NCBI GenBank assembly: GCA_048320885.1
Contig: JBLWFJ010000001.1
Span: forward strand, 5,569,697 to 5,633,696
Length of the DNA stretch: 64,000 bases
Reading direction: 5' to 3'
DNA from: Nannocystaceae bacterium ST9
Lineage (GTDB): Bacteria; Myxococcota_A; Polyangia; Nannocystales; Nannocystaceae
Part shown: positions 6,001 through 41,408 of the stretch, piece after piece
Layout: every line of letters starts with the position of its first letter
How positions within the stretch are numbered: the stretch's first letter is position 1
The notes under the pieces: generated by a model
Told to the model about the DNA's origin: nothing
The model's database searches: none
The model's input: only the letters and a program-made list of their open reading frames with translations
Program-made: the position numbers and the translations under genes

Positions 6001-9000
6001 GCCAGCTCGAGCCCGCGCTCGCTGGCCTTGCCGAGCAACCCGAGCAGCTCCGGCCAGCGCCGACGAGCCTGCAGGCGAGCGATCAGCTCGGCGAGCGCCG
6101 GCGGATCGTCGAGCCGGGCCTCGGCCTGCTCGCGCAGCAACCCGAGCGCGGCGGGCTCGTCGACGACCTCGACGACATGCTGCGCGAGCGCTTCGAAGAG
6201 CGCGCCCGTGCTCGCGGCCGGCAGCGAGCGCTCGCGGATCAGCGCGTTCAGCCAGGCCGCCGCGCGGGCGATCGTCGCCGCGTGCGGCTGAGCGTCGTCG
6301 ACGACCAATTGCTCGGCGGCGCAGCGCAGCCACAGCGCTCGGATCAGGCGCGCGTCGGAGGGGTTGGCGATCAGCCGCTCGCGCAGCAGCGCGTCGGTCC
6401 GCTCGCGCAGCTCGGCGTGCTCGAGCTCGCCGGCCAGCGCGAGCAGGCGCTCGAGCGTGGCGATCTCGCCCTCGGCCGCGATGACCTGCTCGAGCGCCGG
6501 CCAGCGGGCGAGCAGTCGCTCGCGTGCGCCGTGGCGAGCGAGCAGGGTCAGAGCGTCGAGCGCGAGCTCGATCGTCGCGATCCCATGCGGACTCAGCAGC
6601 TCGAGTGCGGCGTCGGCCAAGCTGGCCGCGACCTCGCGCTCGGCCTGCTCGGCGAGCGCCAGCAAGCGGCTCGCGCTGGCTCGCCGATCCTCGTCGTGCA
6701 GCGCGAGCAGGCGCGCGACCAGGCCCTCGCGCCGCGCACTCGCGAGCCCGGGCGCGAGCAGGCGGGCCTCGACGCTGGCCTGCTCCTCCTGGACCCGACC
6801 CAGCCGACGGATCGCCCACTCGCGCAGCTCGGCCAGCTCGCCGCGCTCGACTCGCTCGGGCTCGAGTTGGTCGAGTCCGAACGCGACGGTCGCCGGATCT
6901 TCGAGCGCGCGCCCGAGCTCGATCGTCAGCATCGCCGCCGCGTCGCCCTCGCGGGCGCGCGAGCGATCGCCGAGCGCCACTCGCAAGCTGCGGGCCGCCC
7001 GAGTAGCGAGCTCGGTCCACTCGCCGGTCGCTCGCCGACTGGCCAAGAGCTCGCGCAAGGCCGCGATCGCCCGCGGCTCGATCGTCGGAGCGCCGAGCAG
7101 CGCTTCGAGCCGCTCGATCGCCTGACCTGGACGATCGAGCGCGCGCGCCAGCAGATCGATCTCGGCCAGCCGCTCGTCGAGCTCGAGCTCGACGCCCGGG
7201 GTCTCGCGCAGCACGGCCCGCGCTCGCGCCTGCGCGGCGAGATCGTCGAGCGCCAGGCCGACGCGCAGCCACGCTCGGTTGCCGGCCTCGCGCTCGCGCG
7301 AGCGGACCAAGCCGGGGCTCAGTCGCTCGGCTCGCGCGAACGAGTCGAGCGCGGCCCGACCCTGGTTCGGATCGCCCTCGCGTTCGAAGAGCCGGGTCAG
7401 CGCGCGCGCGCGGGCCAGCTCGAGCGTGGCGCGGTGCTCGTCGGACTCGCCGGCGTCGAGCAGCGCGAGCTGGGCCGCGACGGCCTCGGACGCGAGCGTG
7501 GGATCGTCGATGTCCTGGGCGACCTCGGCGAGCAGCGCGAGCGCGTCGCGATGGCTGGGATCCAGTCGCAGCGCTCGCTCGACCAACCCGTGTGCGAGCT
7601 CGGGCTCGCTGGTGTCGAGCGCGTGGCGAGCCAGCGCCAGCGCCGGTCGCAAGAAGCGAGGATCGTCGGCGTCCAGGCGCTCGCCCGCGACCGTCCACAG
7701 CTGGCGTGCTTGCTCGTGATCACCCTGCTCGTCGCGCAGGTTGCCGAGGATCAGCAGCGCGGTCGTGTGCTCGGGCCGCAAGACCAGCAGATCCTCGAGC
7801 AGCTCGGCCAACTCGTCGCGCCGGCGATCGAGGGCCTCGTCCTGCTCGACCACGCCGATCAGTCGCTCGAGCAGCTCGGCGCGCAGGGCCGGATCGGCGC
7901 GTCGCTCGATCTGCCCGCGCAGGTGCAGCTCGAGTCGCTCGATCTCGCCGCGCTCGCGCAGCGCCTGCTCGAGCTCGTCGGCCAGCGCGAGGTCCTCGGG
8001 GCGCAGCTCGACCGCGCGCTCGAGCAGCTCGATCCGCGTGCTCGGCAGCCCGTCGACCGGCTGGTCGAGCTGATCGAGGCGCTCGACCCCGGCCTCGTCG
8101 AGCACCCGAGCCGCGCGCGCGAGCCAGGCCCCGAGCCGCTCGTCGGCGTCGTCGCGACCGAGCAGCCCGCTCGCGTGCTCGAGCGCGATCGCCAGCGCGC
8201 GCGCGTCTTCGGCCAGCTCGCGCAGGGCCACGAAGGTCTGCTCGGCGATCGCCTCGCGCAGCGCCGGATCGACCAGCTCGGGATCGGCCTGGGCCAGCTC
8301 GCGCTCGCAGGTCGCGAGCAAGTCGGCGGCCTGCTCGAGCTCGCCGACCTCGCGCAAGAGTCGAGCGAGGCGCAGGCTCAGCTGGCCGCGCTCGCTCGGC
8401 GTGGCCCGGGCGTCGTCGTCGAGCAGCGCCTGCAGCTGCGGGATCGCGTGCTCGGGCCGAGCGAGTCGCTCGTAGCAGTCGGCCAGGGCCGCGCGCAGCT
8501 CGAGGCGATCGGGGGCGAGCAGCAGCGCGCGCTCGAGCTGCTCGCTGGCCTCGGCCAGCTCGCCGCGGGCCAGCAGCGTCCGACCCAGGCGGGCGCGGGC
8601 GTGCAGCTCGGTCGCTCGCTCGCGCAGCCGGACCGCGGCCTTGGCCAGCCGCGCCAGACCTTCGCGATCCTCGTCGTCGAGCAGCTGCTCGATCTGCGCG
8701 AGGATCTTCTCGGGCCGATCGAGCTCGTCGACCGCCGCCCACAGGTCGGCGAGTCGCTCGTGGATCCGCAGGGCCTGGGCCGCGCGTTCGACCAGCGCCT
8801 CGCCGCGTCGCTGCCCGCGAGCGTGGACGATCAACAAGTCGAGGATCCGCGCGCGGTCGGTCGGCGGAGCCAGCTCGAGCGCGGCCTCGAGCACGTCGAG
8901 CACCCAGGCTCGCTTGCTGGCCCGCTCGCCGAGCGTGCCGCGATCGAGCGACTCGCCCGACGTCGGGATCGCGCCGGCGACCGAGCGCAGGCTCTCCCAG

Positions 9001-29911: not shown

Positions 29912-31207
29912 TCATCCCCACCCGCCCACATCCGCTCGAAACCCCTCGGCCAGCATCATCCAACCGATCACTTCGTGAAGATCGAGCCGACTGCCGTCCC
30001 ACGTCATCGACTGCTCGCCCGAGGGCTCGGCCGTGTCGAGCCAAGCGGCGACGGCCTCGGGATCGATGCAATGGTTCGGTGCAGGCGCGATGGTCAGACC
30101 GTGGGCATTGATGAATTCGAGCTTGCCCGCCCGAACCTCGACGTGCAATTTGCCCTCGTGGACCAAGCCGTGGTGGCCAGGGCAGAGCAGCACGAGGTTC
30201 GAGATCGAGGTCTCGCCGCCTTCTGCCCACGCGTCGACGTGATGGGCCTGCAAATGCCGCGAGCGCCCGCACCCCGGTACGCGACAGCCACCGTCGCGCA
30301 GCGTCAGCGCCCGCCCGATCGCAGCCGGGATGGTTCGACGCGAACGGCCGACGTCGAGGATCTCGCCCGACTCGCCGACGCTCACGTCGACCCGCGTGGC
30401 GTCGCAGGCCAGCATTCGCGCGACATGGAGCGGCAATGGCGTGCCATCGCGCAGGAATCCACCGATCCCCTCGGAGCCGTGGGCGAGCTGTTCGGGCGTG
30501 GTCATCATGATCAGCTCGCAACCGGTGCCACGCGTGGTCGGCTTGCGCTCGAGGTAGCCACGCGCGACCGCGACCAGCGCGTCGGCTTGATCGGAGCCGT
30601 AATCCCCCGCGGGAGATTGTGGGTCGTTGGCGGCGCGGGCAGGCGTCGAATCTCCCGCGGGAGATTGCGCCATGTCCATCGCCGCTCGAACAACGAGCGC
30701 CTCCTCGGGCCCGACCTGGGCGACGATTCGAACCATGCCATCCGGGGTCTCGGTGAAGCGGGCGAATCGGCGCGGCGCTTCGCCGCCCTGCTCGGAATTC
30801 GCGTGAGCTCGGACTCGCCGCAATCCAGCGACGATCTTGTCGAGTTGGCTGGCGGTCGCGGCCTTGGCCACGTCGATCAGGGTTTGTTGGGTGGCCGGCG
30901 TAGCGGCGCGGGTGAGCGCACGAACCTTCGAGTAGGTCAGCTCACCGGCCGCGAATGCTCGATCGATCAAAGCCAGCTCACCGAGCGCCCGGGCGATACG
31001 GACATGCTCGCTGGCCGTCTTGTTGCTGGTGCCCGTCCACCAGGCCAGCCACGCGACCATCGAGACGCAGCCCGTGTCCGCCCAACCATTGCGGGCGTCG
31101 AATTCACGGATTCGACCGAGCCATGCGTGCTTGACTGCATCGACGTTGCGGGCGAGTTCGGCGATCTGCCGGGCGAGGTGTTCGATGGATTCCAAACAAT
31201 CGGCCAT
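29912..31207 (-). CDS. DUF222 domain + HNH endonuclease (13E12-repeat-type 'HNH endonuclease signature motif' protein), mobile-element-like
   Basis: ORF 29912..31210; HNH motif (…CRVPGCGRSRHLQAHHVDAWAEGGETSISNLVLLCPGHHGLVH…); internal direct repeat QSPAGDxx; lower local GC. Confidence 0.8.
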   Translation of the reverse strand: MADCLESIEHLARQIAELARNVDAVKHAWLGRIREFDARNGWADTGCVSMVAWLAWWTGTSNKTASEHVRIARALGELALIDRAFAAGELTYSKVRALTRAATPATQQTLIDVAKAATASQLDKIVAGLRRVRAHANSEQGGEAPRRFARFTETPDGMVRIVAQVGPEEALVVRAAMDMAQSPAGDSTPARAANDPQSPAGDYGSDQADALVAVARGYLERKPTTRGTGCELIMMTTPEQLAHGSEGIGGFLRDGTPLPLHVARMLACDATRVDVSVGESGEILDVGRSRRTIPAAIGRALTLRDGGCRVPGCGRSRHLQAHHVDAWAEGGETSISNLVLLCPGHHGLVHEGKLHVEVRAGKLEFINAHGLTIAPAPNHCIDPEAVAAWLDTAEPSGEQSMTWDGSRLDLHEVIGWMMLAEGFRADVGGWG

Positions 31208-31352
31208 CACGTGAATATGATATCATTGAAGCGCGCGAATGTCAAGTCGAGTCCACGATGGGCGGGTGGCCCATCGCGCTCACGCGACCGCACGGACCAC
31301 GATAGCGCGTTCGGAATGAGCAGAGGGCTGAGCTGCGAGAGCCCGGAGCTGA

Positions 31353-31493
31353 ATGATGCGACGTGTGTATGCTGCATTCGCCACCGGCGAGCTCGGCTAT
31401 TCCAAGGTTCGCGCAATCACGCGAGCGGCGACGCCCGAGACCGAGCAGGATTTCCTCGATGTTGCGACGCGGATCTCGTCAATGGCCAGATGA
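31353..31493 (+). pseudogene. Inverted partial copy (46 codons) of a DUF222-family gene N-terminal region (MMRRVYAAFATGELGYSKVRAITRAATPETEQDFLDVATRISSMAR)
   Basis: ~70% nt identity to reverse complement of 30860..30960 inside the full DUF222-HNH gene (FAAGELTYSKVRALTRAATPATQQTLIDVA); short, no domain completeness. Confidence 0.5.
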
Positions 31494-31705
31494 TTCATGA
31501 TTCGACGTGCGTGGTTCCGGGGTGTCATGCCGATGGCGTCGACCTGTCCGTGCGGGTCCCTCTGCTCGACGATGCGGGCTTGACCGATCAAATTCGAAAC
31601 GGCGGGACCTCGGCCGATGGCGTCATGCCTGCGTTCTCGGAGAATTTGATCAGCGACGAGGACCTGGTCGACCTCATCGCTTTTCTTCGCCAGATGTATC
31701 CCTGA
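31490..31705 (+). pseudogene. C-terminal fragment of a class I c-type cytochrome (…TCVVPGCHADG…GVMPAFSENLISDEDLVDLIAFLRQMYP), no signal peptide, likely remnant
   Basis: 3' end of artefactual ORF 29897..31705; cytochrome c-like C-terminal helix (MPAF…LSDEDLVDLIAFLR), non-canonical CX4CH; low-GC codons. Confidence 0.4.
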
Positions 31706-31790
31706 CCCGGCCGTGTCAGGGCCGCAGGACTGCGATCCGCGCGAACTCGCCGCGACTGAAAGCCGGCGGCCGCTCGTGGGTTCGGACGGC

Positions 31791-32324
31791 ATGGCGCGCG
31801 TGCTCGGGCTCCTCGTCGCATCGTCGTTGACCTACACCTTTCCGCTGCCCGAGAACGCGGCGGTCGTCGAGCCTGCGCCGTCGGTGGGTGCCGAGCAACT
31901 CTACACGGTCGACCCTCCCCCGGAACGACCTCCCCCGGCTGGGGTCTGGTCCGACGCCGAGAGTGAATCCTCGTCCGGAACGGCCGACGCGACCTGGACC
32001 GACGATGCCCGGCTCAGCCGCGTGCGGGTGCGGGCGAGCAAGCAGGTCAACGCTCGCCTGGTGCGTCGCTCGATCACTCGCCAGTCATTGAAGTTCGAGG
32101 CTTGCCACCAACAAGAGGGGGGCCGGCGCGGGAAGGCGAAGCTCGAGTTGCGACTGCACTTCGACGCGCAGGGCGAGCTGGTCTCGATCGAACTCCTCGC
32201 CGGCACGCTCGGCAACGCCCGCGTCAACCGGTGCGTCGCAGCGGTGCTGTTTGGCCTCGATTGGCAGGGGCTGCCCAGCCAGCGAAGCGTGGTCGACCTC
32301 GACCTCGCCCTGCGCATGCGCTGA
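31791..32324 (+). CDS. Secreted hypothetical protein with AgmX/TonB-C-terminal-like domain
   Basis: Real part of ORF 31713..32324 from ATG 31791 (MARVLGLLVASSLTYTFPLPE signal); C-terminal region resembles myxobacterial AgmX/PglI C-terminal domain. Confidence 0.55.
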   Translation: MARVLGLLVASSLTYTFPLPENAAVVEPAPSVGAEQLYTVDPPPERPPPAGVWSDAESESSSGTADATWTDDARLSRVRVRASKQVNARLVRRSITRQSLKFEACHQQEGGRRGKAKLELRLHFDAQGELVSIELLAGTLGNARVNRCVAAVLFGLDWQGLPSQRSVVDLDLALRMR

Positions 32325-32358: not shown

Positions 32359-34713
32359 ATGCCACGCGCTTCGATCTCCAATCCGATCACGGTGACCTGT
32401 CTGCTCGCGCTGGGCTGCACCGAGTCGCGCACGACCACCCGCCCCGACGACGACGCGAAGGGCGAGCTCGCCGGGCTGCCGAGCTTCGCTCGACCCGAGC
32501 CGGTCCCGCTCGCCGCCGATCAGGCGCTGCTCGTCGCGCAGATCCAGATCGAGCGGCCTCGCGAGTGGCGCTTCGAGCCGGGTGGTCGGCGGGTGGCGGC
32601 GCGGCTCGGACCGGAGTGCGGGGTCTGGCAGCTCGGCAGCGGCGACTTCCTCGGTCGAGTCGGGCCGGAGGTCGCGGGCGATCCTTGCGGGACCTGGCCG
32701 CAGAACGTGCCCTTGGTGCTGCCCGAAGACGCCGGCAACTTCACGCTCGCGCACGCCGACGGGCGCCAGCTGATGGTCGCGGGCGAGCGCTTCGAACTCG
32801 GCGGAAGCAAGCCGCTGCAGAATCGTCTGCGCGAGGGTCGACGCTATCGGGCCGCGGTGTTCAGCCCCGACGGCGCACGCCTGGCGCTCTTCGTGGCCGG
32901 CGAGCGCTCGCCCTTGACGGTCGAGATCTGGGATCTCGGGACTCGTCGACTCGCGCACGAGCTGATGGTCGAGCCCGAGGTCAACGATACGCTCACCCAC
33001 TTCTGGCTGCACTGGACCGAGCACTCGTTGATCGCCGTGGCCAGGACCAAGCCCGAGCCTTGCGACGGCGATCCAGCCACGCCCGCGCCCTACTGCGACA
33101 ACTGGTACGTCGGGCGCGGCGAGAGTCACATCGTCGAGGTCTGGCGCCACGCCGATCGAACGCCCGAACTCGTCGAGCCGATCGACGACTACTACGGGAC
33201 TCCGCGGATCGAGACGCTCTACCTCGAGCCCGATCAGCGCTGGCTGTTCGGATTGACCGAGCGGATCGAGGGTCGCAGCGGCACCGCGTTCTCGTTCTTC
33301 GAGATCCCGCTGCAGGCCGAGCCCGACGACGAGACCGCGCGGACGGGCCTGACCTGGTGGACGAATGGGCTCGATGGCCGCGGGACGCCGCCGCCGGTCA
33401 GGAGCCAGGGCTGGAGCGACGCGGTCGGCTCGAGCTTCTGGGAGGTCGAGGAGTACGGCACCGAGTACGGCGACTGGTTGAGCGCGCGCTGGACGATGCT
33501 CTCGCTGACCCCGGTGCCCGAGCGAGGCGTCGAGGTGCAATGGAGCGACGGGTCGGTGCTCGACGAGGACGTCGGCGAGCACGCCTGGCGGATCGAGTTG
33601 GCCGCGCGCACGACCTTGTTGGCCGACGTCGACAAGTGCCCGCCCAAGTGGTTGATCGACGAGGCCAGCGAGGCCGGCGAGGTGCTGCCCTGCACGAGCG
33701 ATCGGGTGGTGCCCGAGAGCTGCGAGCTGATCGACGCGAGCTGGGCGGGCGATCGAGTGCTGGTCGCCTGCGACCAGCGTTGGCTGTTGGCGAGCCTGCT
33801 GGGCGAGGCGAGCGCGGGCGATGGGCCGAGCGCGGACGCGGGCGGGATCGATCTCGCGGGCGCGCTCGAGCTGGCGCGCGGGACCGGGTCGCCGCGCCAG
33901 GTCGTCTGGGGGCCGCGCGGGATGGCGCTGTGGACCTTCGGCGAGGGCCTGCGACTCTTCGCGGGCGAGCGACTGGTCACGACCGACACCACGGTCAGCG
34001 ATCTGCATCGCGCCACGCTCGACGAGGAGCTCGACCTCGCGTTGGTTCGCACGCCCGAGGGCCTGCGAGTGGTCGACGTCGCGAGCGGCGAGCTCGGCCC
34101 GGTGTTGGCCTGGACCGAGCGGGTCGAGCACGCCGCGTTCTCGCCGGATCGTCGTCGGGTGGCGATCGCGGGCGCGAGCGAGCTCGCGGTGTTCGATCGC
34201 GGCGCGAGCTCGCCGAGCTTTCGCTCGCGCACGGGCAAGCTGGCCGGCGTGGCGTTCCGGCAAGACGGCGAGGTGCTCTGGGTCGGCGGCGCGCGGGCCT
34301 TGCCCGAGGTCCCGCTCGATCCCACGAGCGGCGAGTTGGTCGAGTCGGCGCTGCTCGATCGCGTGGCCTTCGATCGGATCGCGGCGGCCGATCTCGATCC
34401 GAGCTGGCGCTGGGCGATCGAGGAGGACGGGACGGTCCTGCGCACGATCGACGGCCAGGGCTTGCTGGTCTCGTGGGACGGCGAGTCGGCGATGAGCGAG
34501 AGCGGTTGGTTGCAGGGCTCGCCCGAGCGCTTCGATCAGCGCTTGCGGATCGGTCCGAGTCCGCTCGCGCCGGTGTATCGACTGGAGACGGTCGCGGATC
34601 AGCTCGCCCGACCCCAGCTGATGCGCGAGTTTTTTTCGGGCCAGGCGTTGCCCCGACCGAGCGTGCGGGCACCTTCGCCCACGAGCGAGCCGGCGGGCGA
34701 GCCGAAGCCCTGA
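32359..34713 (+). CDS. Lipoprotein with WD40/PD40 (TolB-like) beta-propeller repeats (FSPDGxRLA motifs), 784 aa
   Basis: ORF 32251..34713 from ATG 32359 (MPRASISNPITVTCLLALGC); the 1582-aa minus ORF over this region is a mirror artefact. Confidence 0.75.
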   Translation: MPRASISNPITVTCLLALGCTESRTTTRPDDDAKGELAGLPSFARPEPVPLAADQALLVAQIQIERPREWRFEPGGRRVAARLGPECGVWQLGSGDFLGRVGPEVAGDPCGTWPQNVPLVLPEDAGNFTLAHADGRQLMVAGERFELGGSKPLQNRLREGRRYRAAVFSPDGARLALFVAGERSPLTVEIWDLGTRRLAHELMVEPEVNDTLTHFWLHWTEHSLIAVARTKPEPCDGDPATPAPYCDNWYVGRGESHIVEVWRHADRTPELVEPIDDYYGTPRIETLYLEPDQRWLFGLTERIEGRSGTAFSFFEIPLQAEPDDETARTGLTWWTNGLDGRGTPPPVRSQGWSDAVGSSFWEVEEYGTEYGDWLSARWTMLSLTPVPERGVEVQWSDGSVLDEDVGEHAWRIELAARTTLLADVDKCPPKWLIDEASEAGEVLPCTSDRVVPESCELIDASWAGDRVLVACDQRWLLASLLGEASAGDGPSADAGGIDLAGALELARGTGSPRQVVWGPRGMALWTFGEGLRLFAGERLVTTDTTVSDLHRATLDEELDLALVRTPEGLRVVDVASGELGPVLAWTERVEHAAFSPDRRRVAIAGASELAVFDRGASSPSFRSRTGKLAGVAFRQDGEVLWVGGARALPEVPLDPTSGELVESALLDRVAFDRIAAADLDPSWRWAIEEDGTVLRTIDGQGLLVSWDGESAMSESGWLQGSPERFDQRLRIGPSPLAPVYRLETVADQLARPQLMREFFSGQALPRPSVRAPSPTSEPAGEPKP

Positions 34714-34758
34714 GCACGCGCTGCGCCAAACCCACCGCGTTCGAGTACCCTGCGGTGC

Positions 34759-36948
34759 ATGTCGGGCCTCGTCCGAACTACCTCGCTCTCGCTCGTCTGC
34801 CTGTTCGCCGCCGCATGCCACCGCGACGGCGCGCCGATCCCCGAGACCCCCGACGGTAGCAAGCCGATCGCCGAGGTCGAAGGCGGCGGGGCCGAGCTCT
34901 CGATCGTCGCGGTGCCGCAGGTGTCGGCCGGCGATCCCTACAACTGGCTCTTCGAACCGGGCGGTCGTCGAATCGCGTCGGCCGAGCTCGGCGAATGCAC
35001 GATCTGGGACGTCGAGAGCGGTCGAACGCTGCGCAGCCTCCCGCTCGATCCGGTCCCGCAGCCCTGCGCCGAGTGGCTGCCGCCGCTCGGAGTCTACGAG
35101 TTCGTCCGCAACGCGGGCTCGGCCGACGGCAAGCTCGACATCGCGGGCACGGACATCGTCGACGCCGAGTCGGGCAACACCCTGCGCAGCCTCGCGTGTC
35201 GGACCTGTGCCGACGCCGACATGTACACGTGGTCGGCGAGCGGTCACCAGCTCGCGTTCTTCTGGATCGAGTCGCGGCGGCTGGAGATCTGGGACGCCGA
35301 CTCGGGCAAGAAGCTGCGCTCGGAGACCCTGCCGGGCTCGGCCGAGATCGAAGATTCGATGCTGACCTGGCCGGCCGTGGGCCCGCTCCTGCTGACGGTC
35401 TCGCTCGGCGATCCGGTCGATTGCGACGAGGACATGGGCCTCGATTGCGACTACGACGAAGAGGGCAACCCGCTGCCGCATCAGGCGAGCGAGCGGCGTG
35501 GCTGGCTGGCGGCCGGCAAAGACTTGGTCGAGCTCGAGCTCGGCATCAATCAGGGCACGGTCGACGAGCTCTCGCTCGATCCCGAGGGCCGCTGGTTGTT
35601 CTGGACCTACTCGTGGGAAGAGCGGCGCGACGGGACCAGCACGATCGTCGAGTTCATCGGGCTCGACGATCGGCCGAGCGGGATGAGCGGCGAACACACC
35701 GAGAGCTACGGCGAGTACGAGGGGTCGATGACCCGCGAGGGCCAGTGGCGGATCGACGGCGCGACCCACTGGGCGGTCACGATCATCGCCGATGGCTACG
35801 AGGGTGGGCTCGAAGCCATCGGTTGGGAGACCACGCTGACTCAGCCGGCGCTCGGCCGGCGCTGGGGCGAGGTCGCCGACGATCCCGGTTGGGAGGCCGA
35901 GGTGGAGGTCGAGCTGTTCGGGTTCGTCGACGGGGCGCTCCGCTTCGGAGGCCAGCTCTGCGAGCGCGAGTCGTGCAAGCCCTTGGGCCCCGAGCTCCCG
36001 CCCGACTGTTTGATGCTCGACATCGGGTCGAACCACGGCAGCGAGCTGCTCGACTGCGGTGGTCGTGTTCACCTGCGCAGTCGGGCAGGGCTGAGCTTGC
36101 TGCCGCTCGACGCCGGCTCGGCGTTCTGGTGGTGGTCGCGCGGCGGCGCGCTGGTCATCGAAGACGGGGCGACCTTCATGGTCCTCGACGCGGCGAGCGG
36201 CAAGGTCGGTCTGCAGCGCAGCGACATCGGCGAGGTCTACGACGGCAAGCTCGGGCCCGAGCTCGATCGTCTGGTGCTGGTCGGCGAGCAGGGCGTCGAG
36301 GTCCTCGATCTGACCAAGCTCGCCGTGATCTGGAAGCAGCCCGACGACGCGCTCGAGTTCGCGTTTTCGCCGACCGGCGATCGTCTGGCCCTGCTCGACG
36401 CCGAGGGGATTCGGGTGATCGAGCTGGCCAGCGGCAAGCAGACCGCCGCCTGGGAGGCGCCGGTCGAGCAGCTCGCGTTTCGCCAGGACGGCGCGGTGAT
36501 CTACGTCGGCGGAGACTACCCCGTGGCCGGCTTCGACGTTGCGAGCGGCGAGCCGGTCAACGATCCGCTCTTGTTCGCGAAGATCCTCGAGGCGGTCGAT
36601 CAGGGCGGCGAGATCGATCCGAGCTGGCGCTGGATCATGCACGACGAGTTCGGCGAGCTGCTGCGCACCGTCGACGGCCGGACGATCGAGTGGTTGGACG
36701 AGGGCGCGTGGCTGCCCGACTCCGGCCAGTACGGCGGCAAGGGTCCGGGTCTCGAGCTGGCCTTCCGGGTCGGCGACGATGCTTGGGGCGTGCCCGAGTT
36801 CGACGCCCAGCAGCTCGCCAAGTGGTTGCAGATCGGCGATCTCGAGCAGGTGTTCCTGTCCGGGCAGGCGATCGCCAAGCCGAAGATCACGGCCGGCGAG
36901 CTGCAGGGCCTGCGCGCGAAGGTGCAAGGCAAGGGCAAGACGCCGTGA
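34759..36948 (+). CDS. Paralogous WD40/PD40-like beta-propeller lipoprotein (729 aa)
   Basis: ORF 34759..36948 (MSGLVRTTSLSLVCLFAAAC); shares C-terminal region with upstream paralog (…IDPSWRW…LRT(I/V)DG…). Confidence 0.75.
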   Translation: MSGLVRTTSLSLVCLFAAACHRDGAPIPETPDGSKPIAEVEGGGAELSIVAVPQVSAGDPYNWLFEPGGRRIASAELGECTIWDVESGRTLRSLPLDPVPQPCAEWLPPLGVYEFVRNAGSADGKLDIAGTDIVDAESGNTLRSLACRTCADADMYTWSASGHQLAFFWIESRRLEIWDADSGKKLRSETLPGSAEIEDSMLTWPAVGPLLLTVSLGDPVDCDEDMGLDCDYDEEGNPLPHQASERRGWLAAGKDLVELELGINQGTVDELSLDPEGRWLFWTYSWEERRDGTSTIVEFIGLDDRPSGMSGEHTESYGEYEGSMTREGQWRIDGATHWAVTIIADGYEGGLEAIGWETTLTQPALGRRWGEVADDPGWEAEVEVELFGFVDGALRFGGQLCERESCKPLGPELPPDCLMLDIGSNHGSELLDCGGRVHLRSRAGLSLLPLDAGSAFWWWSRGGALVIEDGATFMVLDAASGKVGLQRSDIGEVYDGKLGPELDRLVLVGEQGVEVLDLTKLAVIWKQPDDALEFAFSPTGDRLALLDAEGIRVIELASGKQTAAWEAPVEQLAFRQDGAVIYVGGDYPVAGFDVASGEPVNDPLLFAKILEAVDQGGEIDPSWRWIMHDEFGELLRTVDGRTIEWLDEGAWLPDSGQYGGKGPGLELAFRVGDDAWGVPEFDAQQLAKWLQIGDLEQVFLSGQAIAKPKITAGELQGLRAKVQGKGKTP

Positions 36949-38102
36949 AATCGGCGAGCTGGTTGCTCGCATCGCTCGGCGTGCTCGGTGCGGCGCTGAT
37001 GTTCGCCGACGCAGGCTCGGCCACCAGCCCCGCCCGCGCGCCGATGTCCGCGATCGAGTCTGCGAGCAAGTCCGCGACCAAGTCGATCCTGGTCATGCCG
37101 GGCCCTGGCAAGGGCCCGCGCGCCGCCGATCGCCTCGATCGCAACGACGACTGCGTGGCCTGTCACGCCGACGTGGCCAGCGAGTGGTCGCACTCGCTGC
37201 ATCGCCAGTCGTTCGACGATCCGATGGTCCAGGTCGCGCTCGATCGAGAGCACGCGCCCGGGTTCTGCCGATCCTGTCACGCGCCCGAGGCCGACCCTCG
37301 CCACGAGCCCTCGAAGCGGGCGGCCGCGGCCGGGGTCGCGTGCGTCACCTGTCACCTGACCGGTTCGAGCGACGAGGTGCTCGCGTCGCCCAAGTCCGGC
37401 GTCGACGATCGGCTCGTCCCGCACGCGCTGCGCCGCGAGGCCGCGTTCGCGAGCGCCGACGCGTGCGGGGGCTGCCACGAATTCTGGTTCCCCAGCGACG
37501 GCCGAGTCGGGCACGAGCTCAAGATGCAGCGGACGCTCGCCGAGCACGAGCGCTCGGCCTTCGCCGACGAGAGCTGTCAGGACTGCCACATGGTGCCGAT
37601 GCGCTCGGGCGGCCGGGTCCATCGCGGACATCGCTTCACCGTCGCGGGTGAACCGGCCACGCTGCGCGCCGCGGTGACGATCGACGCGTCGCGACCCGAG
37701 CCCGGCCGCGTGGTGCTCTCGCTCTCGCCACGCCTGGTCGGCCACGCGTTCCCGACCGGCGATCTCTTTCGCCGGATCGCCGTCGAGGTCCACGCCGCGG
37801 GCGAGGGCCCGGCCTGGTCCGATCAACGCCTGCTCGCCCGCCACTTCGCCGGTCAGCGAGTCGGCGCGGGCCAGGTCATCAAGATCGAGCGCGACGACGA
37901 TCGGATCGGGATCGGCAGCGGCCCGCGCGTGGTCGAGTTCGAGCTGCCGGCCGAGCTGCACGATCGAGCGATCCGCTGGTCGCTGCATCACGAGCAGGTC
38001 TTGGAAGCTTCGATCGGCGCCGAGCATCGGGCCGAGGTCTGGGATCGCACCGAGTTCGCGAGCGGGACGCTGAGCCCCGCTCAGCCGGCCGGCAGTCGAT
38101 GA
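36945..38102 (+). CDS. Pentaheme c-type cytochrome (5x CxxCH: CVACH, CRSCH, CVTCH, CGGCH, CQDCH) with signal peptide
   Basis: C-terminal real portion of ORF 34995..38102 from GTG 36945 overlapping upstream stop (GTGA); signal VKSASWLLASLGVLGAALMFADA. Confidence 0.8.
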   Translation: MKSASWLLASLGVLGAALMFADAGSATSPARAPMSAIESASKSATKSILVMPGPGKGPRAADRLDRNDDCVACHADVASEWSHSLHRQSFDDPMVQVALDREHAPGFCRSCHAPEADPRHEPSKRAAAAGVACVTCHLTGSSDEVLASPKSGVDDRLVPHALRREAAFASADACGGCHEFWFPSDGRVGHELKMQRTLAEHERSAFADESCQDCHMVPMRSGGRVHRGHRFTVAGEPATLRAAVTIDASRPEPGRVVLSLSPRLVGHAFPTGDLFRRIAVEVHAAGEGPAWSDQRLLARHFAGQRVGAGQVIKIERDDDRIGIGSGPRVVEFELPAELHDRAIRWSLHHEQVLEASIGAEHRAEVWDRTEFASGTLSPAQPAGSR

Positions 38103-39763
38103 ATCCGTAGCCGGCCCGGCTCGAGCACGTGCGGCCCGGCGACGCTGCCGACCACCGACCAGCGCGCGTCCGGGGCTTCGAATGCGGCGATCGGCTCGCC
38201 GGTGCAGGCGATCCACAGGTGGTGGGCGCCCTCGTCGTCGCGGCGCAGGACCACGCCGATCCCCGCGCCACCGACGATCGAATACTCGCCATCGAGCGGC
38301 GTGCGCTCGATCGTGCCGCGTGGATCGACCGAGATCAGCGTCGCGCCGAACATCAGGTGGGCCCAGCCCGCCCGATCGACGAACACCTCGTCGTCGATCG
38401 CTCCTTCGACCCGGGCGATCGGCTTGCCGGTCTCGGGCTCGATCAGCTCGAGCAGACGGTCGCCGCAGATCAGCACGCAGGTCGGTCCGAGCGCGATCAT
38501 CTGCAGGTTCAGCGGCCCGACCAGCCGCCGCCAGGTCTGCCGACCCGCGAGATCGAGCCCGAACGCGTAGCCACCTTCGGCCGCGACGATCCGCTCGCCG
38601 ACCCGCACGTGCGCGTGGCAGCCCAGGTCGAAGCGCCGCTCGAGTCGATCGCCCACGCGCCGCCAGCCCTCGAGTCGCGCGCCGGCCAGCGGCACCGCGA
38701 GCAGGCGCTCGTCGTCGATCGGATCGCAGCTGCGCGCGCCGACGATCGCTCGGCTGTGCGCGGCGACCTGCCAGCGATCGTCGAACAGGCTCAGCCCGAT
38801 CAGCTCGCCCGCGTCGTCGACCACGTTCGAGAACAGCCAGCCGCCGGCCATCGCTCGCGGGGCGCAGGGGTAGGGCGAGCGCGGCTCGATCTGCATGGGC
38901 AGCGAGGCCGCGAACTCGAGCCGCTCGTCGCGGAGCTCGACCCGGCGCGGGCCTTCGGGTGTCGGCTCGGGGTCGGGGATCAACAGGCAGTGACCGCGAT
39001 CGAGCGCGAGGCCGAGCAGGCGGGCGCCGGGGCTCAGCGGCAGCGCGAGCATGGTCTCGGGCCGCAGCATCAACAAGCTGGGCGTCGGCCCCTCGATGAA
39101 GAAGAGCAGGCTCTCGGGCTGACTCGCCAGCAGGCGCGGCGGACCAGCGAGTGGGATCTCGACCCCGCCGGGCTCGCTGAAGCGAAGCAGGCTCGCCGGT
39201 TCGCGCAGCGGCGCGATCAGGGCGCCCGGCAATTCGAAGAGCTCGTCGCAGCTCGACATGTCGCGCTGGAGATCGATCATGAACTCGAGCTGCGGCACGA
39301 CGACGCTGCGCTGGGTGGCCGCGAGCTCGTCGATCAGCAGGGCGAGCGCGTCGGTCCAGGTCGAGTCGAGCCGCGCTTGGCCATGCAGCGCGGCGATCCG
39401 CTCGCGATCGTCGTGGCCCGGCGTCAGGGTCCGCAGCAGCCCGACGCGAGCGCTGGCCAGCTCCCAGAGCGGCCCGTGCGGGAGCCCGTGCCCGACCAGC
39501 AACGCGACGACCGAAGCGGGCTCGTGCCCGAGCAGCGCTCGCTCGGCCTCGGCGCTCGGCAGTCGCCACTCGTTCTGATACGAGAAGCGGCTGGTGTCGC
39601 AGACCACCCAAAACCACGCCCCGCAGGCTCGACAGCGCATCCAAAACGAGTCTTCGTAGCCGCCGATCAGCTCGAGCGTCGGCGCCCACAGCAGGTCGCC
39701 GCGGCTGTCGAAGCCGGCGCGGAGCGGATGCGGCGTGGGGCAGGGGCGGGCGGAGCCGGCCAT
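38081..39763 (-). CDS. Hypothetical protein (560 aa) with Cys-rich zinc-ribbon-like N-terminus (MRCRACGAWFWVVCD)
   Basis: ORF 38081..39763; good GC3 codon usage on minus strand; 20 bp downstream of the ASST-like gene (operon); 3' end overlaps cytochrome gene convergently. Confidence 0.7.
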   Translation of the reverse strand: MAGSARPCPTPHPLRAGFDSRGDLLWAPTLELIGGYEDSFWMRCRACGAWFWVVCDTSRFSYQNEWRLPSAEAERALLGHEPASVVALLVGHGLPHGPLWELASARVGLLRTLTPGHDDRERIAALHGQARLDSTWTDALALLIDELAATQRSVVVPQLEFMIDLQRDMSSCDELFELPGALIAPLREPASLLRFSEPGGVEIPLAGPPRLLASQPESLLFFIEGPTPSLLMLRPETMLALPLSPGARLLGLALDRGHCLLIPDPEPTPEGPRRVELRDERLEFAASLPMQIEPRSPYPCAPRAMAGGWLFSNVVDDAGELIGLSLFDDRWQVAAHSRAIVGARSCDPIDDERLLAVPLAGARLEGWRRVGDRLERRFDLGCHAHVRVGERIVAAEGGYAFGLDLAGRQTWRRLVGPLNLQMIALGPTCVLICGDRLLELIEPETGKPIARVEGAIDDEVFVDRAGWAHLMFGATLISVDPRGTIERTPLDGEYSIVGGAGIGVVLRRDDEGAHHLWIACTGEPIAAFEAPDARWSVVGSVAGPHVLEPGRLRIHRLPAG

Positions 39764-39783: not shown

Positions 39784-41313
39784 TCAGCCTTCACCTGGCA
39801 GCCGCGTCGTCGGGATCGCGCGATAGATGAACTTGCCCTGCTGGGTGGTCAGCGACCAGACCTCCATCGGGCTCGCGTCGAGATCGAGCTCGCGCAGGCG
39901 CGAGAAATTCTTGCCGACCTCGTAGCTCGCGGGATCGGGCTGCAAGGTCGAGTCGAGGACCAGCAGGTTGTCCGTGGGCATTGGCTCGACGTCACCCGCG
40001 ACGCTCGACACGAAGGGCTCGGCATCGTCTTGCCAGACCTGCGCGGCCGTCATCGCGTCGAGGTCGAGCGCGTAGCGGACCACTCGCGCGTGCGCGTCGG
40101 CCAGCGGCACGCCGGATTGCAGGTCGTTGTCATAGATCAGCAGGTCGCCCTCGGGGAGCAGTCGCGGCGAGTGCTGATGGTGAAACCACGCTCCGCGGGT
40201 CAACGCGAAGTCGCCCTCGTCGCCGAGCCGCCAGACGATCTCGCCGCTCGCGTGTTCGATCGCGATCACCCAGTCTTGGTGGCGCATCGAGAGCACGATC
40301 CGATCGTCGGGCGTCTGCAGCATGCCGTTGCCGTGGGTCCAGTCGTAGCCGTAGTTGCCGGTCTCGGGATCGAGGTAGCCCAAACCCTCGCCGAAATCGG
40401 CCTTGCGCCGCTGAGGATCGAGGTGCTCGAAGGCGTCCCAAGTCCAGACCACCTCGCCGCTCGGATCGAATTCGACCAGCAGATCGCCGGCGACCAGCAT
40501 GCTGCCCTCGTCGGGATAGTCGACCTCGAGGAAGCTGTTGCCGAGCGTCAGGAAATTGCCGTTGGCCAGCTCGATCACCTCGTGGTGGAAGGCAGCCAAG
40601 CCCTGATCGGCGGCCGCGAATTGCAGCAGCGGCTGCGCGAGCTCGTCGAGCACGATGATCGTGCCGTCGCGCAGACCGAGCACGGTGCCGTCGTCGCGCA
40701 GCGCGATCCCGGCCCAGATCGCCGTGGCCCCGAGCGCCGCTGGTGGGCCGCCGACGTACCAGCGAGTCACCCCCGCGCCGTCGATCACGAAGATGCCGGT
40801 CGGCGAGAAGAGCGGGGTGTAGGCGTAGTCGAACATGCGATAGCTCGGATCGATCGCGTCGGGCGTCGTGACCTCGAGCGCGAAGTTCGGGCGGAAGCCG
40901 GACAGCGGCGGCAGGGTCGACACGGTCAGCGGGTGCGAATCGCCGCCGACGATCGCCAATGTCATCGGATGCTCGGTCTCGGGTGCGAGCCCACGCACGC
41001 GGAAGCGGTGCGTGCGGCCCTCGTCGCTGATCGTCGGTGCGCCGACGTGGATGCCCGGATCGGTGTCGTGGCTCAGCGTCGATTCGCCCGGAGAGTCGAG
41101 CGTGACTTCGACATCGACGACCATCGGCTGCGTCCGGTAGGTGATCAGCTCGGGATCGCCGAGCAGGCGCGGCGGGCCCTCGCTCGTGTCGCTCGCAGTC
41201 TCGCTGGCGTTGCCATCCTCGCTCGCCTCGTTGCTCGCGGCTCCCGCGGGCTGGTCGACGCAAGCGAGCACGAGTAGGGCCGCGGCGGGCGAGATCGAAG
41301 GGAATCGGTGCAT
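39784..41313 (-). CDS. Arylsulfotransferase (ASST)-like beta-propeller family lipoprotein
   Basis: Real part of ORF 39784..41808 from ATG 41313 (MHRFPSISPAAALLVLAC lipobox; acidic S/E linker); ASST-like motifs (WDAFEHLDP, HGNGMLQT, HHEVIELANGNFL). Confidence 0.7.
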   Translation of the reverse strand: MHRFPSISPAAALLVLACVDQPAGAASNEASEDGNASETASDTSEGPPRLLGDPELITYRTQPMVVDVEVTLDSPGESTLSHDTDPGIHVGAPTISDEGRTHRFRVRGLAPETEHPMTLAIVGGDSHPLTVSTLPPLSGFRPNFALEVTTPDAIDPSYRMFDYAYTPLFSPTGIFVIDGAGVTRWYVGGPPAALGATAIWAGIALRDDGTVLGLRDGTIIVLDELAQPLLQFAAADQGLAAFHHEVIELANGNFLTLGNSFLEVDYPDEGSMLVAGDLLVEFDPSGEVVWTWDAFEHLDPQRRKADFGEGLGYLDPETGNYGYDWTHGNGMLQTPDDRIVLSMRHQDWVIAIEHASGEIVWRLGDEGDFALTRGAWFHHQHSPRLLPEGDLLIYDNDLQSGVPLADAHARVVRYALDLDAMTAAQVWQDDAEPFVSSVAGDVEPMPTDNLLVLDSTLQPDPASYEVGKNFSRLRELDLDASPMEVWSLTTQQGKFIYRAIPTTRLPGEG

Positions 41314-41408
41314 GAGGGCTCCGACTCTCGTTGGCCACGTGCCGGTGGATCCGTCGGATTTTCGGCGCTCGATTGCTCGCGCTCGCTCGCCGGGCAATCC
41401 TGGCGCCG

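What the first reader, a model, noticed from the sequence alone, without database searches (positions are those of the whole stretch)
32359..38102. Operon of two paralogous beta-propeller lipoproteins translationally coupled to a pentaheme c-type cytochrome
Two large WD40/PD40-like lipoproteins (784 and 729 aa) share a C-terminal module. They are followed by a secreted pentaheme cytochrome whose GTG start overlaps the preceding stop. Multiheme cytochromes associated with outer-membrane/periplasmic propeller lipoproteins hint at an extracytoplasmic electron-transfer or redox-sensing complex that does not match a named system (not Mtr/Pcc/Omc architecture).
Basis: partly seen in the sequence, partly recalled or inferred. 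Interest (0 to 1): 0.55.

Follow-up and report, generated by a model that had tools for sequence, protein, structure and literature searches.

The report
Propeller lipoproteins coupled to pentahaem cytochrome
A myxobacterium encodes two membrane-anchored beta-propeller proteins next to a secreted five-haem cytochrome, and this lipoprotein-plus-cytochrome pairing recurs across a whole class of myxobacteria with no function yet assigned.

Summary
Three co-directional genes encode LipoA (32359-34713, 784 aa), LipoB (34759-36948, 729 aa) and a secreted cytochrome with five CXXCH motifs (36945-38102). The cytochrome's GTG start overlaps the LipoB stop by 4 nt. The cytochrome is 100% identical to a hypothetical protein of Nannocystaceae bacterium ST9.

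The cytochrome family has 305 loci in species genomes. The best 80 are all Polyangia or myxobacterial MAGs. In 52 of those 80, a lipoprotein gene lies within about 2 kb, usually directly adjacent. The lipoprotein family changes with the cytochrome clade. The LipoB-cytochrome pair is conserved; the trio appears in only two other contigs, in a different order.

Best reading: a lipoprotein-docked periplasmic redox module, substrate unknown. It is a new variant of a known kind.

The parts
32359..34713 (+). LipoA: 784-aa predicted lipoprotein (Cys20 at 32416-32418). Divergent WD40-type propeller and distant full-length paralog of LipoB.
   Evidence: ORF and N-terminus. BLASTP to LipoB E 2e-25. Iterated A1 profile E 1.9e-122. 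Orthologs at 44-53% identity in L001 and L006.
34759..36948 (+). LipoB: 729-aa predicted lipoprotein (Cys20 at 34816-34818). Nearly all-beta WD40-type propeller protein with a small C-terminal alpha/beta region. Conserved partner of the cytochrome.
36945..36948 (+). GTGA overlap: the cytochrome start codon overlaps the LipoB stop codon, a translational-coupling signature.
   Evidence: The L001 ortholog pair overlaps by 4 nt in its deposited gene calls. My GC3-based gene caller gives -4 gaps for orthologous and analogous pairs in L006, L007, L016, L020, L027, L039, L052, L054, L061, L062 and L066.
36945..38102 (+). Secreted pentahaem c-type cytochrome, 385 aa, of the c552 (LPC)/MccSep superfamily. 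Signal peptide residues 1 to about 23, haem domain about 60-240, Ig-like domain about 244-376.
37152..37166 (+). Haem motif 1, C70-V-A-C73-H74
   Evidence: invariant in 82 of 82 sequences.
37266..37280 (+). Haem motif 2, C108-R-S-C111-H112. Second CXXCH in order, as is the active-site haem 2 motif of MccSep (proximal H122).
37341..37355 (+). Haem motif 3, C133-V-T-C136-H137
37464..37478 (+). Haem motif 4, C174-G-G-C177-H178
37575..37589 (+). Haem motif 5, C211-Q-D-C214-H215
37524..37529 (+). Invariant Met194-Gln195 of the MQxTxxE motif. It aligns within one residue of the haem-2-ligating Cys239 of MccSep and of a Cys in the LCQT stretch of c552. Candidate distal ligand or pocket residue of haem 2.
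   Evidence: Alignments. Invariant in 82 of 82. Role is inferred.
37740..37763 (+). Loop G266-H-A-F-P-T-G-D273 of the Ig-like domain. It aligns without gaps to GHSIPDG-U325 of MccSep and HAMPTG-A of c552. Asp273 occupies the position of the catalytic selenocysteine.
   Evidence: H267, P270, T271, G272, D273 and R276 are invariant in 82 of 82.

Best explanation
The locus encodes a periplasmic redox module. Its core is a soluble pentahaem cytochrome of the c552 (LPC)/MccSep type, made in fixed proportion with a membrane-anchored WD40-propeller lipoprotein (LipoB) and probably docked onto it. A second, anciently diverged paralog (LipoA) is an optional extra subunit or alternative dock.

The proposed mechanism has three steps:
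1. The lipoprotein holds the cytochrome at a membrane surface. It may also contribute a binding platform for a substrate or partner.
2. Four bis-His haems relay electrons.
3. The fifth haem (haem 2) is the reactive or gating centre. Its pocket is lined by invariant Met194, Gln195, Glu200, Asp273 and Arg276.

That pocket sits where MccSep has its His/Cys haem and selenocysteine. Here Met/Gln and Asp occupy those positions instead, so the chemistry is not MccSep's Se/S polysulfide reduction. The substrate and the electron donor or acceptor are unknown.

Shown: gene structure, homologies, predicted folds, residue conservation, conserved adjacency.
Inferred: physical complex, haem ligation, catalytic role, membrane location.
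For: Gene structure:
- The 4-nt start/stop overlap is in the sequence.
- No promoter-like site lies between the three genes, and terminator-like sites are no more frequent than in shuffles.

Conserved pairing:
- In every sampled member of the window's cytochrome clade with enough flanking sequence (L001, L003, L006, L007, L009-L014), an A1 gene that is LipoB-like (or nearer LipoB than LipoA) sits immediately upstream.
- Going the other way, 3 of 4 distant A1 lipoproteins have the cytochrome next door at gaps of 7, 7 and -4 nt. One of them is from assembly GCA_000170895.1.
- Of the 80 best loci from species genomes, 12 have an A1 gene beside the cytochrome on the same strand. Another 40 have an A2-type lipoprotein gene within about 2 kb, usually directly adjacent and on the same strand. 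Seven of the remaining 28 are cut by a contig end.
- Partner family follows the cytochrome tree, as expected for co-evolving subunits.
- No other gene is conserved nearby.

Cytochrome:
- Profile E 1.5e-17 to 5ze8 and 6.8e-11 to MccSep.
- There are exactly four invariant non-motif His (86, 160, 229, 267) for five haems.
- M194, Q195, T197, E200, D273 and R276 are invariant in 82 of 82 sequences.
- No Cys is conserved outside the CXXCH motifs.
- In MccSep, haems 1, 3, 4 and 5 are bis-His and haem 2 is catalytic, with Sec325 reaching in from the Ig-like domain (preprint 10.1101/2025.11.18.688581).

Lipoprotein:
- Cys20 is invariant.
- The fold is a WD40-type propeller, a common protein-docking platform (established knowledge).
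Against: - No direct evidence of a complex; no multimer prediction was available.
- The partner lipoprotein families A1 and A2 show no detectable homology (hhalign probability 8%). The partner may therefore not play one uniform role.
- About a quarter of loci with adequate flanks have neither A1 nor A2. Some carry a ~340-aa lipoprotein instead.
- LipoB has no invariant His and no obvious metal or cofactor motif. It gives no hint of a substrate.
- T. tepidum c552, the closest solved relative, has no known function.
- Met194 as haem ligand rests on alignments that place the Cys of MccSep or c552 at position 193 or 195, not 194.
- The AF2 models contain no haems.
Confidence: 0.5

Rival explanations
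1. The cytochrome is only an electron shuttle with no catalysis. The lipoprotein is the functional component, for example a substrate-binding or surface-exposed protein that receives or donates electrons through the cytochrome.
For: Multihaem chains commonly act as wires (established knowledge). c552 of T. tepidum has no demonstrated enzymatic activity. The partner varies by clade while the cytochrome stays constant, which fits a generic electron module serving different lipoproteins.
Against: Neither A1 nor A2 shows a redox cofactor motif. A1 has no invariant His, and its conserved Cys look like disulfide pairs. A2 has no Pfam or PDB sequence hit. The strictly invariant polar pocket (Q195, E200, D273, R276) at the site that is catalytic in MccSep is more than a wire would need.
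Confidence: 0.2
2. The genes are co-transcribed neighbours with no physical or mechanistic link. Envelope proteins happen to be placed together, and the adjacency persists through shared ancestry.
For: Close relatives share wider synteny: the convergent 560-aa gene at 38081-39763, a rotamase gene and HupE. Some of the adjacency therefore reflects relatedness. One distant A1 member (P0200) has no cytochrome within 5 kb.
Against: Adjacency persists where all other synteny is lost (E. salina, Pseudenhygromyxa, GCA_000170895.1). It survives a swap in gene order, with the cytochrome upstream or downstream. It often keeps a 4-nt overlap, and it recurs with an unrelated lipoprotein family in other clades. 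No other neighbour is conserved.
Confidence: 0.12
3. An outer-membrane extracellular electron-transfer conduit analogous to Mtr/Pcc/Ext, exporting electrons to external acceptors.
For: A marginal Pfam hit to MtrC/MtrF domains II/IV (32.1 bits, cut-off 30). Other c552-like pentahaem proteins sit in porin-containing clusters: ExtKL in G. sulfurreducens (the porin in the ext cluster is from my own knowledge) and PtdA-PtdB. The lipoproteins lack Lys at +2, so they may go to the outer membrane (inference from Myxococcus sorting rules, recalled from memory).
Against: No beta-barrel or porin gene is adjacent or conserved near the pair in 80 loci. There are only five haems. The cytochrome is predicted to be soluble and is a homolog of soluble periplasmic proteins.
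Confidence: 0.08
4. A periplasmic redox or ligand sensor: haem 2 binds a small molecule and the propeller relays the signal.
For: A haem with a replaceable Met ligand could bind gases (inference). WD40 domains mediate protein-protein signalling (established knowledge).
Against: No transmembrane signalling protein is conserved next to the pair. Ser/Thr kinase genes occur in 18 of 66 loci, roughly what I would expect by chance given how many such kinases myxobacterial genomes carry (my own knowledge, not computed). Five haems is excessive for a sensor.
Confidence: 0.05

Closest known systems
Low-potential pentahaem cytochrome c552 (LPC) of Thermochromatium tepidum, PDB 5ZE8
   Different: c552 has a Cys in the LCQT stretch where this family has invariant M-Q, and Ala where this family has invariant Asp273. 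c552 is from a purple sulfur gammaproteobacterium. Its function is described as unknown. No lipoprotein partner is known for it; its gene context was not examined here.
MccSep / ExtKL, the multihaem cytochrome c selenoprotein of Geobacter sulfurreducens (PDB 9WT8), a polysulfide reductase
   Same: Five CXXCH plus a C-terminal Ig-like domain. The conserved GH-x-x-P-x-G loop reaches the haem-2 pocket. Four bis-His haems plus one special haem 2.
   Different: The NCBIfam ExtKL model scores 29.4 bits against a cut-off of 250. Sec325 is replaced by invariant Asp. The haem-ligating Cys239 is absent, and no Cys is conserved outside CXXCH. MccSep is a homotetramer in an anaerobe. Here the gene is coupled to a lipoprotein gene in Polyangia, which are classically aerobic (my own knowledge).
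PtdA of the ptdABCDEFG cluster (marine Alphaproteobacteria and others; bioRxiv 10.1101/2023.11.21.568154)
   Same: [quoted passage not shown]
   Different: The PtdA neighbour is a porin, followed by tetra- and decahaem proteins and cytoplasmic redox proteins. Here the only conserved neighbour is a lipoprotein. No sequence comparison with PtdA was possible.
Mtr/Pcc porin-cytochrome conduits
   Same: An extracytoplasmic multihaem cytochrome encoded with an envelope lipoprotein. Marginal Pfam hit to MtrC/MtrF domains II/IV.
Enzymes that combine a beta-propeller with c-type haem subunits (cytochrome cd1 nitrite reductase, hydrazine synthase, quinohaemoprotein amine dehydrogenase)
   Same: In general terms, a propeller paired with c-type haems in the periplasm (from established knowledge; not tested here).

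Membership tests
c552 (LPC)/MccSep superfamily of pentahaem cytochromes with a C-terminal Ig-like domain | Five CXXCH motifs in one N-terminal domain | tested here: met
   Residues 70-74, 108-112, 133-137, 174-178 and 211-215. Invariant in 82 of 82.
c552 (LPC)/MccSep superfamily of pentahaem cytochromes with a C-terminal Ig-like domain | C-terminal Ig-like beta-sandwich domain | tested here: met
c552 (LPC)/MccSep superfamily of pentahaem cytochromes with a C-terminal Ig-like domain | Whole-chain structural and sequence similarity to a solved member | tested here: met
c552 (LPC)/MccSep superfamily of pentahaem cytochromes with a C-terminal Ig-like domain | Conserved G-H-x-x-P-x-G loop of the Ig-like domain | tested here: met
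   GHAFPTGD aligns without gaps to GHSIPDGU (MccSep) and HAMPTGA (c552).
MccSep/ExtKL proper (polysulfide-reducing selenoenzyme) | NCBIfam NF040886 score at or above the cut-off of 250 bits | tested here: not met
   29.4 bits.
MccSep/ExtKL proper (polysulfide-reducing selenoenzyme) | Sec or Cys at the position of U325 | tested here: not met
   Asp273, invariant in 82 of 82.
MccSep/ExtKL proper (polysulfide-reducing selenoenzyme) | Haem-2 distal Cys ligand (C239) | tested here: not met
   No Cys is conserved outside the ten CXXCH cysteines. The region reads L-K-M-Q.
WD40-type beta-propeller proteins | Pfam WD40 or propeller model above its gathering score | tested here: not met
   Only THOC3 beta-propeller at 13.7 bits (cut-off 305) for LipoA; nothing for LipoB.
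WD40-type beta-propeller proteins | Profile-level homology to bona fide WD40 repeat proteins | tested here: met
   A1 profile vs PDB sequences: PkwA WD40 at 5.4e-16, plus WDR5, PWP2 and others, on profile regions about 60-190 and about 465-610. Thousands of multi-repeat hits in the 1.84-billion-protein library. Three were checked by Pfam and are WD40 proteins.
WD40-type beta-propeller proteins | Predicted propeller fold | tested here: met
PD40 (TolB-like) repeat proteins | Pfam PD40 repeats | tested here: not met
   No PD40 hit at E <= 0.1.
Bacterial lipoproteins | Signal peptide ending in a lipobox with an invariant Cys | tested here: met
   Cys20 in both proteins, invariant across A1. Based on pattern reading only; no SignalP/LipoP-type predictor was available.
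Mtr/Pcc/Omc porin-cytochrome conduits | Adjacent outer-membrane beta-barrel (porin) gene | tested here: not met
   None among the neighbours in the window. None conserved in 80 loci.
Mtr/Pcc/Omc porin-cytochrome conduits | Deca- or octahaem, or lipidated outer-surface cytochrome | tested here: not met
   Five haems and no lipobox Cys in the cytochrome. The MtrC/MtrF domain hit is marginal, 32.1 against 30 bits.

The most novel reading that the evidence does not exclude
Polyangia possess a previously undescribed family of two-subunit periplasmic haem enzymes. The catalytic subunit is a c552-like pentahaem cytochrome. Its haem-2 pocket has swapped the Cys/Sec sulfur-selenium chemistry of MccSep for an invariant Met/Gln/Glu/Asp/Arg set. 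It is docked to clade-specific lipoproteins (WD40 propeller, the A2 family, or a ~340-aa family) that set substrate or location. That would give these classically aerobic predators and cellulose degraders a new extracytoplasmic redox reaction.
Probability: 0.25. Interest if true: 0.65.

Novelty: new variant of a known kind. Interest (0 to 1): 0.45.

Why it matters
The c552/MccSep superfamily has only one member with a known reaction: MccSep, a polysulfide reductase described in a 2025 preprint. The founding structure, T. tepidum c552, still has no assigned function.

This locus points to a large, uniform branch of the superfamily: 305 loci in species genomes, with the best 80 all from Polyangia or myxobacterial MAGs. 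The branch has a different invariant pocket and a conserved lipoprotein partner.

That offers two things. First, a tractable comparison for how the haem-2 pocket sets the chemistry. Second, a concrete hypothesis for what multihaem cytochromes do in organisms not known for anaerobic respiration. It also gives a function-linked context to a WD40 lipoprotein family that databases list only as 'hypothetical' or 'WD40 repeat domain-containing protein'.

If the pair proves to be a plain electron carrier with a tether, the finding is of modest, mainly annotational value.

Tried and rejected
- Pfam and NCBIfam on LipoA and LipoB gave nothing usable.
- I tested whether the Polyangiales partner lipoprotein (A2) is a diverged A1. 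hmmsearch gave no hit. hhalign gave probability 8%, matching the signal peptide only. A2 has no Pfam or PDB sequence hit. Homology was rejected at sequence level.
- The convergent downstream 560-aa gene (38081-39763) is unrelated to LipoB. It is syntenic only in close relatives.
- The afdb50 fold library was not available.
- The Chen et al. 2019 c552 paper is not held in the library. Statements about it come and from memory.
- A literature search for multihaem cytochromes in Polyangia or Nannocystaceae found nothing relevant.
- I looked for further conserved neighbours such as a quinol dehydrogenase, porin or haem lyase. None turned up. The only recurrent cluster is Ser/Thr kinases, which I judge to be at about background frequency from my own knowledge of myxobacterial genomes.
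- My first GC3-based gene caller failed on lower-GC contigs. I replaced it with six-frame HMM searches.
Full report
**Source and gene structure**

The window is about 70% G+C. The cytochrome and LipoB are 100% identical to hypothetical proteins ACNOYE_23405 and ACNOYE_23400 of 'Nannocystaceae bacterium ST9'. The organism is therefore a myxobacterium of the class Polyangia.

Three co-directional ORFs fill 32359-38102.
- LipoA runs from ATG 32359 to 34713 (784 aa).
- LipoB runs from ATG 34759 to 36948 (729 aa).
- The cytochrome runs from GTG 36945 to 38102 (385 aa).

The cytochrome's GTG lies inside ...CCGTGA, a 4-nt overlap with the LipoB stop. LipoA and LipoB are 45 nt apart.

A consensus scan found no promoter-like site between the genes. 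It found one terminator-like site inside the unit (35236-35255, within LipoB). The region as a whole had 2 such sites against 2.4 expected from shuffles.

Both large proteins begin with a short basic and hydrophobic leader ending in Cys20. That Cys is invariant in the family. The cytochrome has a Sec-type leader without Cys.

Its five CXXCH motifs are the only cluster of such motifs in the window.

**The two large proteins**

BLASTP aligns LipoA and LipoB colinearly over nearly their full length (23% identity, E 2e-25). Similarity is strongest in the last ~200 residues. They are full-length paralogs, not two proteins sharing a module.

The duplication is old. LipoA is 44-53% identical to its orthologs in two other contigs, but only about 25% identical to any LipoB-type protein.

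Pfam and NCBIfam give nothing significant. Three other lines establish the fold.
- An AF2 model of LipoB, built from 22 family sequences, is confident (pLDDT 86.8, pTM 0.78). It is almost entirely beta, with roughly eleven four-strand groups followed by a small alpha/beta C-terminal region.
- The family profile hits solved WD40 proteins by sequence (PkwA at 5.4e-16, WDR5, PWP2) in two regions, about 60-190 and about 465-610.

Against 1.84 billion representative proteins, the profile gives about 55 full-length single-stretch relatives among the top 150, followed by long multi-repeat proteins. Three of those were checked by Pfam and are canonical WD40 proteins.

'WD40-like propeller lipoprotein' is therefore right, although the repeats are too divergent for Pfam. 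The family has many invariant Trp, Asp and Arg residues and paired Cys. It has no invariant His and no cofactor motif.

**The cytochrome**

The cytochrome has more than 700 detected relatives and 305 loci in one-genome-per-species bacterial genomes. The best 80 come from named Polyangia (Nannocystaceae, Enhygromyxa, Nannocystis, Polyangium, Sorangium, Chondromyces, Minicystis, Byssovorax, Paraliomyxa) or from myxobacterial and deltaproteobacterial MAGs.

The family profile matches two solved proteins by sequence. One is pentahaem cytochrome c552 of Thermochromatium tepidum (5ZE8, E 1.5e-17). The other is the multihaem selenoprotein MccSep (9WT8, E 6.8e-11).

MccSep was recently shown to be a polysulfide reductase. 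Its haems 1, 3, 4 and 5 are bis-His. Haem 2 is His/Cys239-ligated, and Sec325 reaches the pocket from the Ig-like domain (preprint 10.1101/2025.11.18.688581).

In the family studied here, 82 of 82 sequences keep the following:
- the five CXXCH motifs;
- exactly four other His (86, 160, 229, 267);
- M194, Q195, T197, E200, D273 and R276.

No Cys outside the haem motifs is conserved. The loop GHAFPTG-D273 aligns without gaps to GHSIPDG-U325 of MccSep, so an invariant Asp replaces the selenocysteine. c552 has Ala at that position.

The Cys ligand of MccSep, and a Cys of c552, align within one residue of the invariant M194-Q195. I infer four bis-His relay haems plus a special haem 2. Its pocket is conserved but chemically different from MccSep's.

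The protein fails every MccSep-specific test. The NCBIfam score is 29 against a cut-off of 250, there is no Sec or Cys at the 325 position, and there is no Cys ligand. It is a superfamily member, not an MccSep.

**Does the gene set recur?**

I tested this in both directions.

Starting from the cytochrome:
- In the closest relative, a metagenome contig (L001, cytochrome 75% identical), a LipoB ortholog (58% identity) sits just upstream with the same 4-nt overlap.
- Enhygromyxa salina also has a LipoB ortholog just upstream. Pseudenhygromyxa has a more distant A1 lipoprotein (27% identical) there.
- Using my own six-frame HMM searches with iterated profiles on the 80 genome loci, 12 have an A1 (LipoA/B family) gene beside the cytochrome on the same strand.
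- Another 40 have a gene of a second lipoprotein family, A2 (530-610 aa; Polyangium, Sorangium, Minicystis, Chondromyces). It lies within about 2 kb of the cytochrome, usually directly adjacent on the same strand.
- The remaining 28 have neither. Seven of these are cut by a contig end.
- Several Nannocystis loci instead carry a ~340-aa lipoprotein next to the cytochrome.

The partner may lie upstream or downstream, and many pairs overlap by 4 nt. On a neighbour-joining tree of the cytochromes, the partner family follows the clade. The window's clade has A1 throughout, wherever flanking sequence is available.

A1 and A2 are not detectably homologous. A2 has no Pfam or PDB sequence hit. No other neighbouring gene family is conserved. 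Only Ser/Thr kinases recur, at about the frequency I would expect by chance from my own knowledge of myxobacterial genomes.

Starting from the lipoprotein, 3 of 4 distant A1 members have the cytochrome immediately adjacent. One of them is from assembly GCA_000170895.1. One has no cytochrome within 5 kb.

The trio is less conserved than the pair. LipoA orthologs occur only in L001 (two copies) and L006. There they follow the cytochrome, whereas in the window LipoA precedes LipoB.

**Surroundings**

Relative to L001, the window is rearranged upstream.
- Only the C-terminal ~137 residues of an 833-aa VIT-VWA protein remain (31854-32321).
- Next to that remnant are a DUF222/HNH endonuclease gene on the other strand and a small cytochrome-c-like ORF, in a stretch of lower G+C.

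Downstream the gene order is as follows.
- A convergent 560-aa gene of unknown function overlaps the cytochrome's 3' end by 22 nt. It is syntenic only in close relatives.
- Then comes an arylsulfotransferase gene that is absent from L001.
- After that come a PpiC-type rotamase and HupE.

None of these is conserved with the pair beyond close relatives.

**Mechanism**

The best-supported reading is a two-component periplasmic redox module. A c552-type pentahaem cytochrome is made in fixed proportion with a clade-specific lipoprotein, and is probably docked to it. In this organism the partner is a WD40 propeller, with a second paralog as an extra or alternative subunit.

The propeller most plausibly acts as tether and binding platform. 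The cytochrome relays electrons through four bis-His haems to or from a special haem 2.

The gene structure, the homologies and the conservation are shown. The complex, the ligation and the catalysis are inferred. Substrate and redox partners are unknown, and no quinol dehydrogenase or porin is linked to the pair.

Four rivals remain.
- A plain electron shuttle serving the lipoprotein is the most credible.
- Neighbours without a mechanistic link is the second.
- A porin-less Mtr-like conduit is disfavoured.
- A redox sensor is also disfavoured.

**Novelty and verdict**

No paper in the library describes this family or the pairing. Databases label the proteins 'hypothetical', 'multiheme c-type cytochrome' or 'WD40 repeat domain-containing protein'.

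Another c552-like protein, PtdA, has been noted next to a porin in marine bacteria, also with unknown function.

I rate this a new variant of a known kind. Interest is moderate.

Noticed in passing
window 31397-31705 (+): A ~100-aa ORF hits Pfam Cytochrome_CBB3 (32 bits, cut-off 27). Its haem-binding motif reads C-V-V-P-G-C-H (CX4CH) rather than CXXCH. It lies in a stretch of lower G+C and weak coding signal, so it may be a decayed or acquired monohaem cytochrome c gene.
   Followed up: partly
window 29912-31210 (-), promoter-like site 31245-31217: A DUF222/HNH endonuclease gene with an 11-of-12 sigma-70-type promoter match. My GC3-based caller did not call it, which suggests atypical codon usage. 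It sits exactly where the neighbouring VIT-VWA gene is truncated relative to the closest relative contig, so it may mark an insertion or rearrangement.
   Followed up: partly
window 31713-32324 (+): This ORF matches only residues 697-833 (the AgmX/PglI-type C-terminal domain) of an 833-aa VIT-VWA protein that precedes the cluster in L001. The rest of that gene is absent from the window. It is either a truncated remnant or a stand-alone domain protein.
   Followed up: yes
window 38081-39763 (-): A convergent 560-aa gene with no Pfam or NCBIfam hit. Its 3' end overlaps the cytochrome's 3' end by 22 nt. Its N-terminus carries a CxxC...C pattern. It is conserved at this position in L001 (58% identity), and a 545-aa gene sits at the same position in L006.
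   Followed up: partly
window 39784-41367 (-): An arylsulfotransferase (ASST, Pfam E 2e-52) gene lies between the 560-aa gene and the rotamase/HupE pair. It is absent from the otherwise syntenic L001 contig.
   Followed up: no
window 3-11096 (-): A single ORF of about 3698 aa running off the window's edge. Its only Pfam hits are scattered TPR repeats.
   Followed up: no
L004 2620-8004 (Polyangium sp. y55x31); similar layout in L016, L020, L027, L039: In L004, the A2 lipoprotein-cytochrome pair is preceded by a Gly-rich lipoprotein with a MopE-type Cu-binding motif and by a divergent multicopper oxidase gene. An RPE65-type oxygenase gene follows on the other strand. The other four Polyangium loci show the same gene sizes and order, but their flanking genes were not scanned against Pfam. 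This may hint at a copper or oxidative context in that genus.
   Followed up: partly
L001 11110-15569: The closest relative contig carries two tandem, overlapping LipoA-type genes (724 and 762 aa, 45% identical to each other) directly after the cytochrome. That makes four coupled genes there, against three in the window.
   Followed up: yes
L034 2584-4443 (-) and L044 2701-3885 (-): Two A2-type loci also carry an A1-related ORF on the opposite strand, 1.5-2 kb upstream of the cytochrome. The two lipoprotein families can therefore coexist near one cytochrome gene.
   Followed up: no
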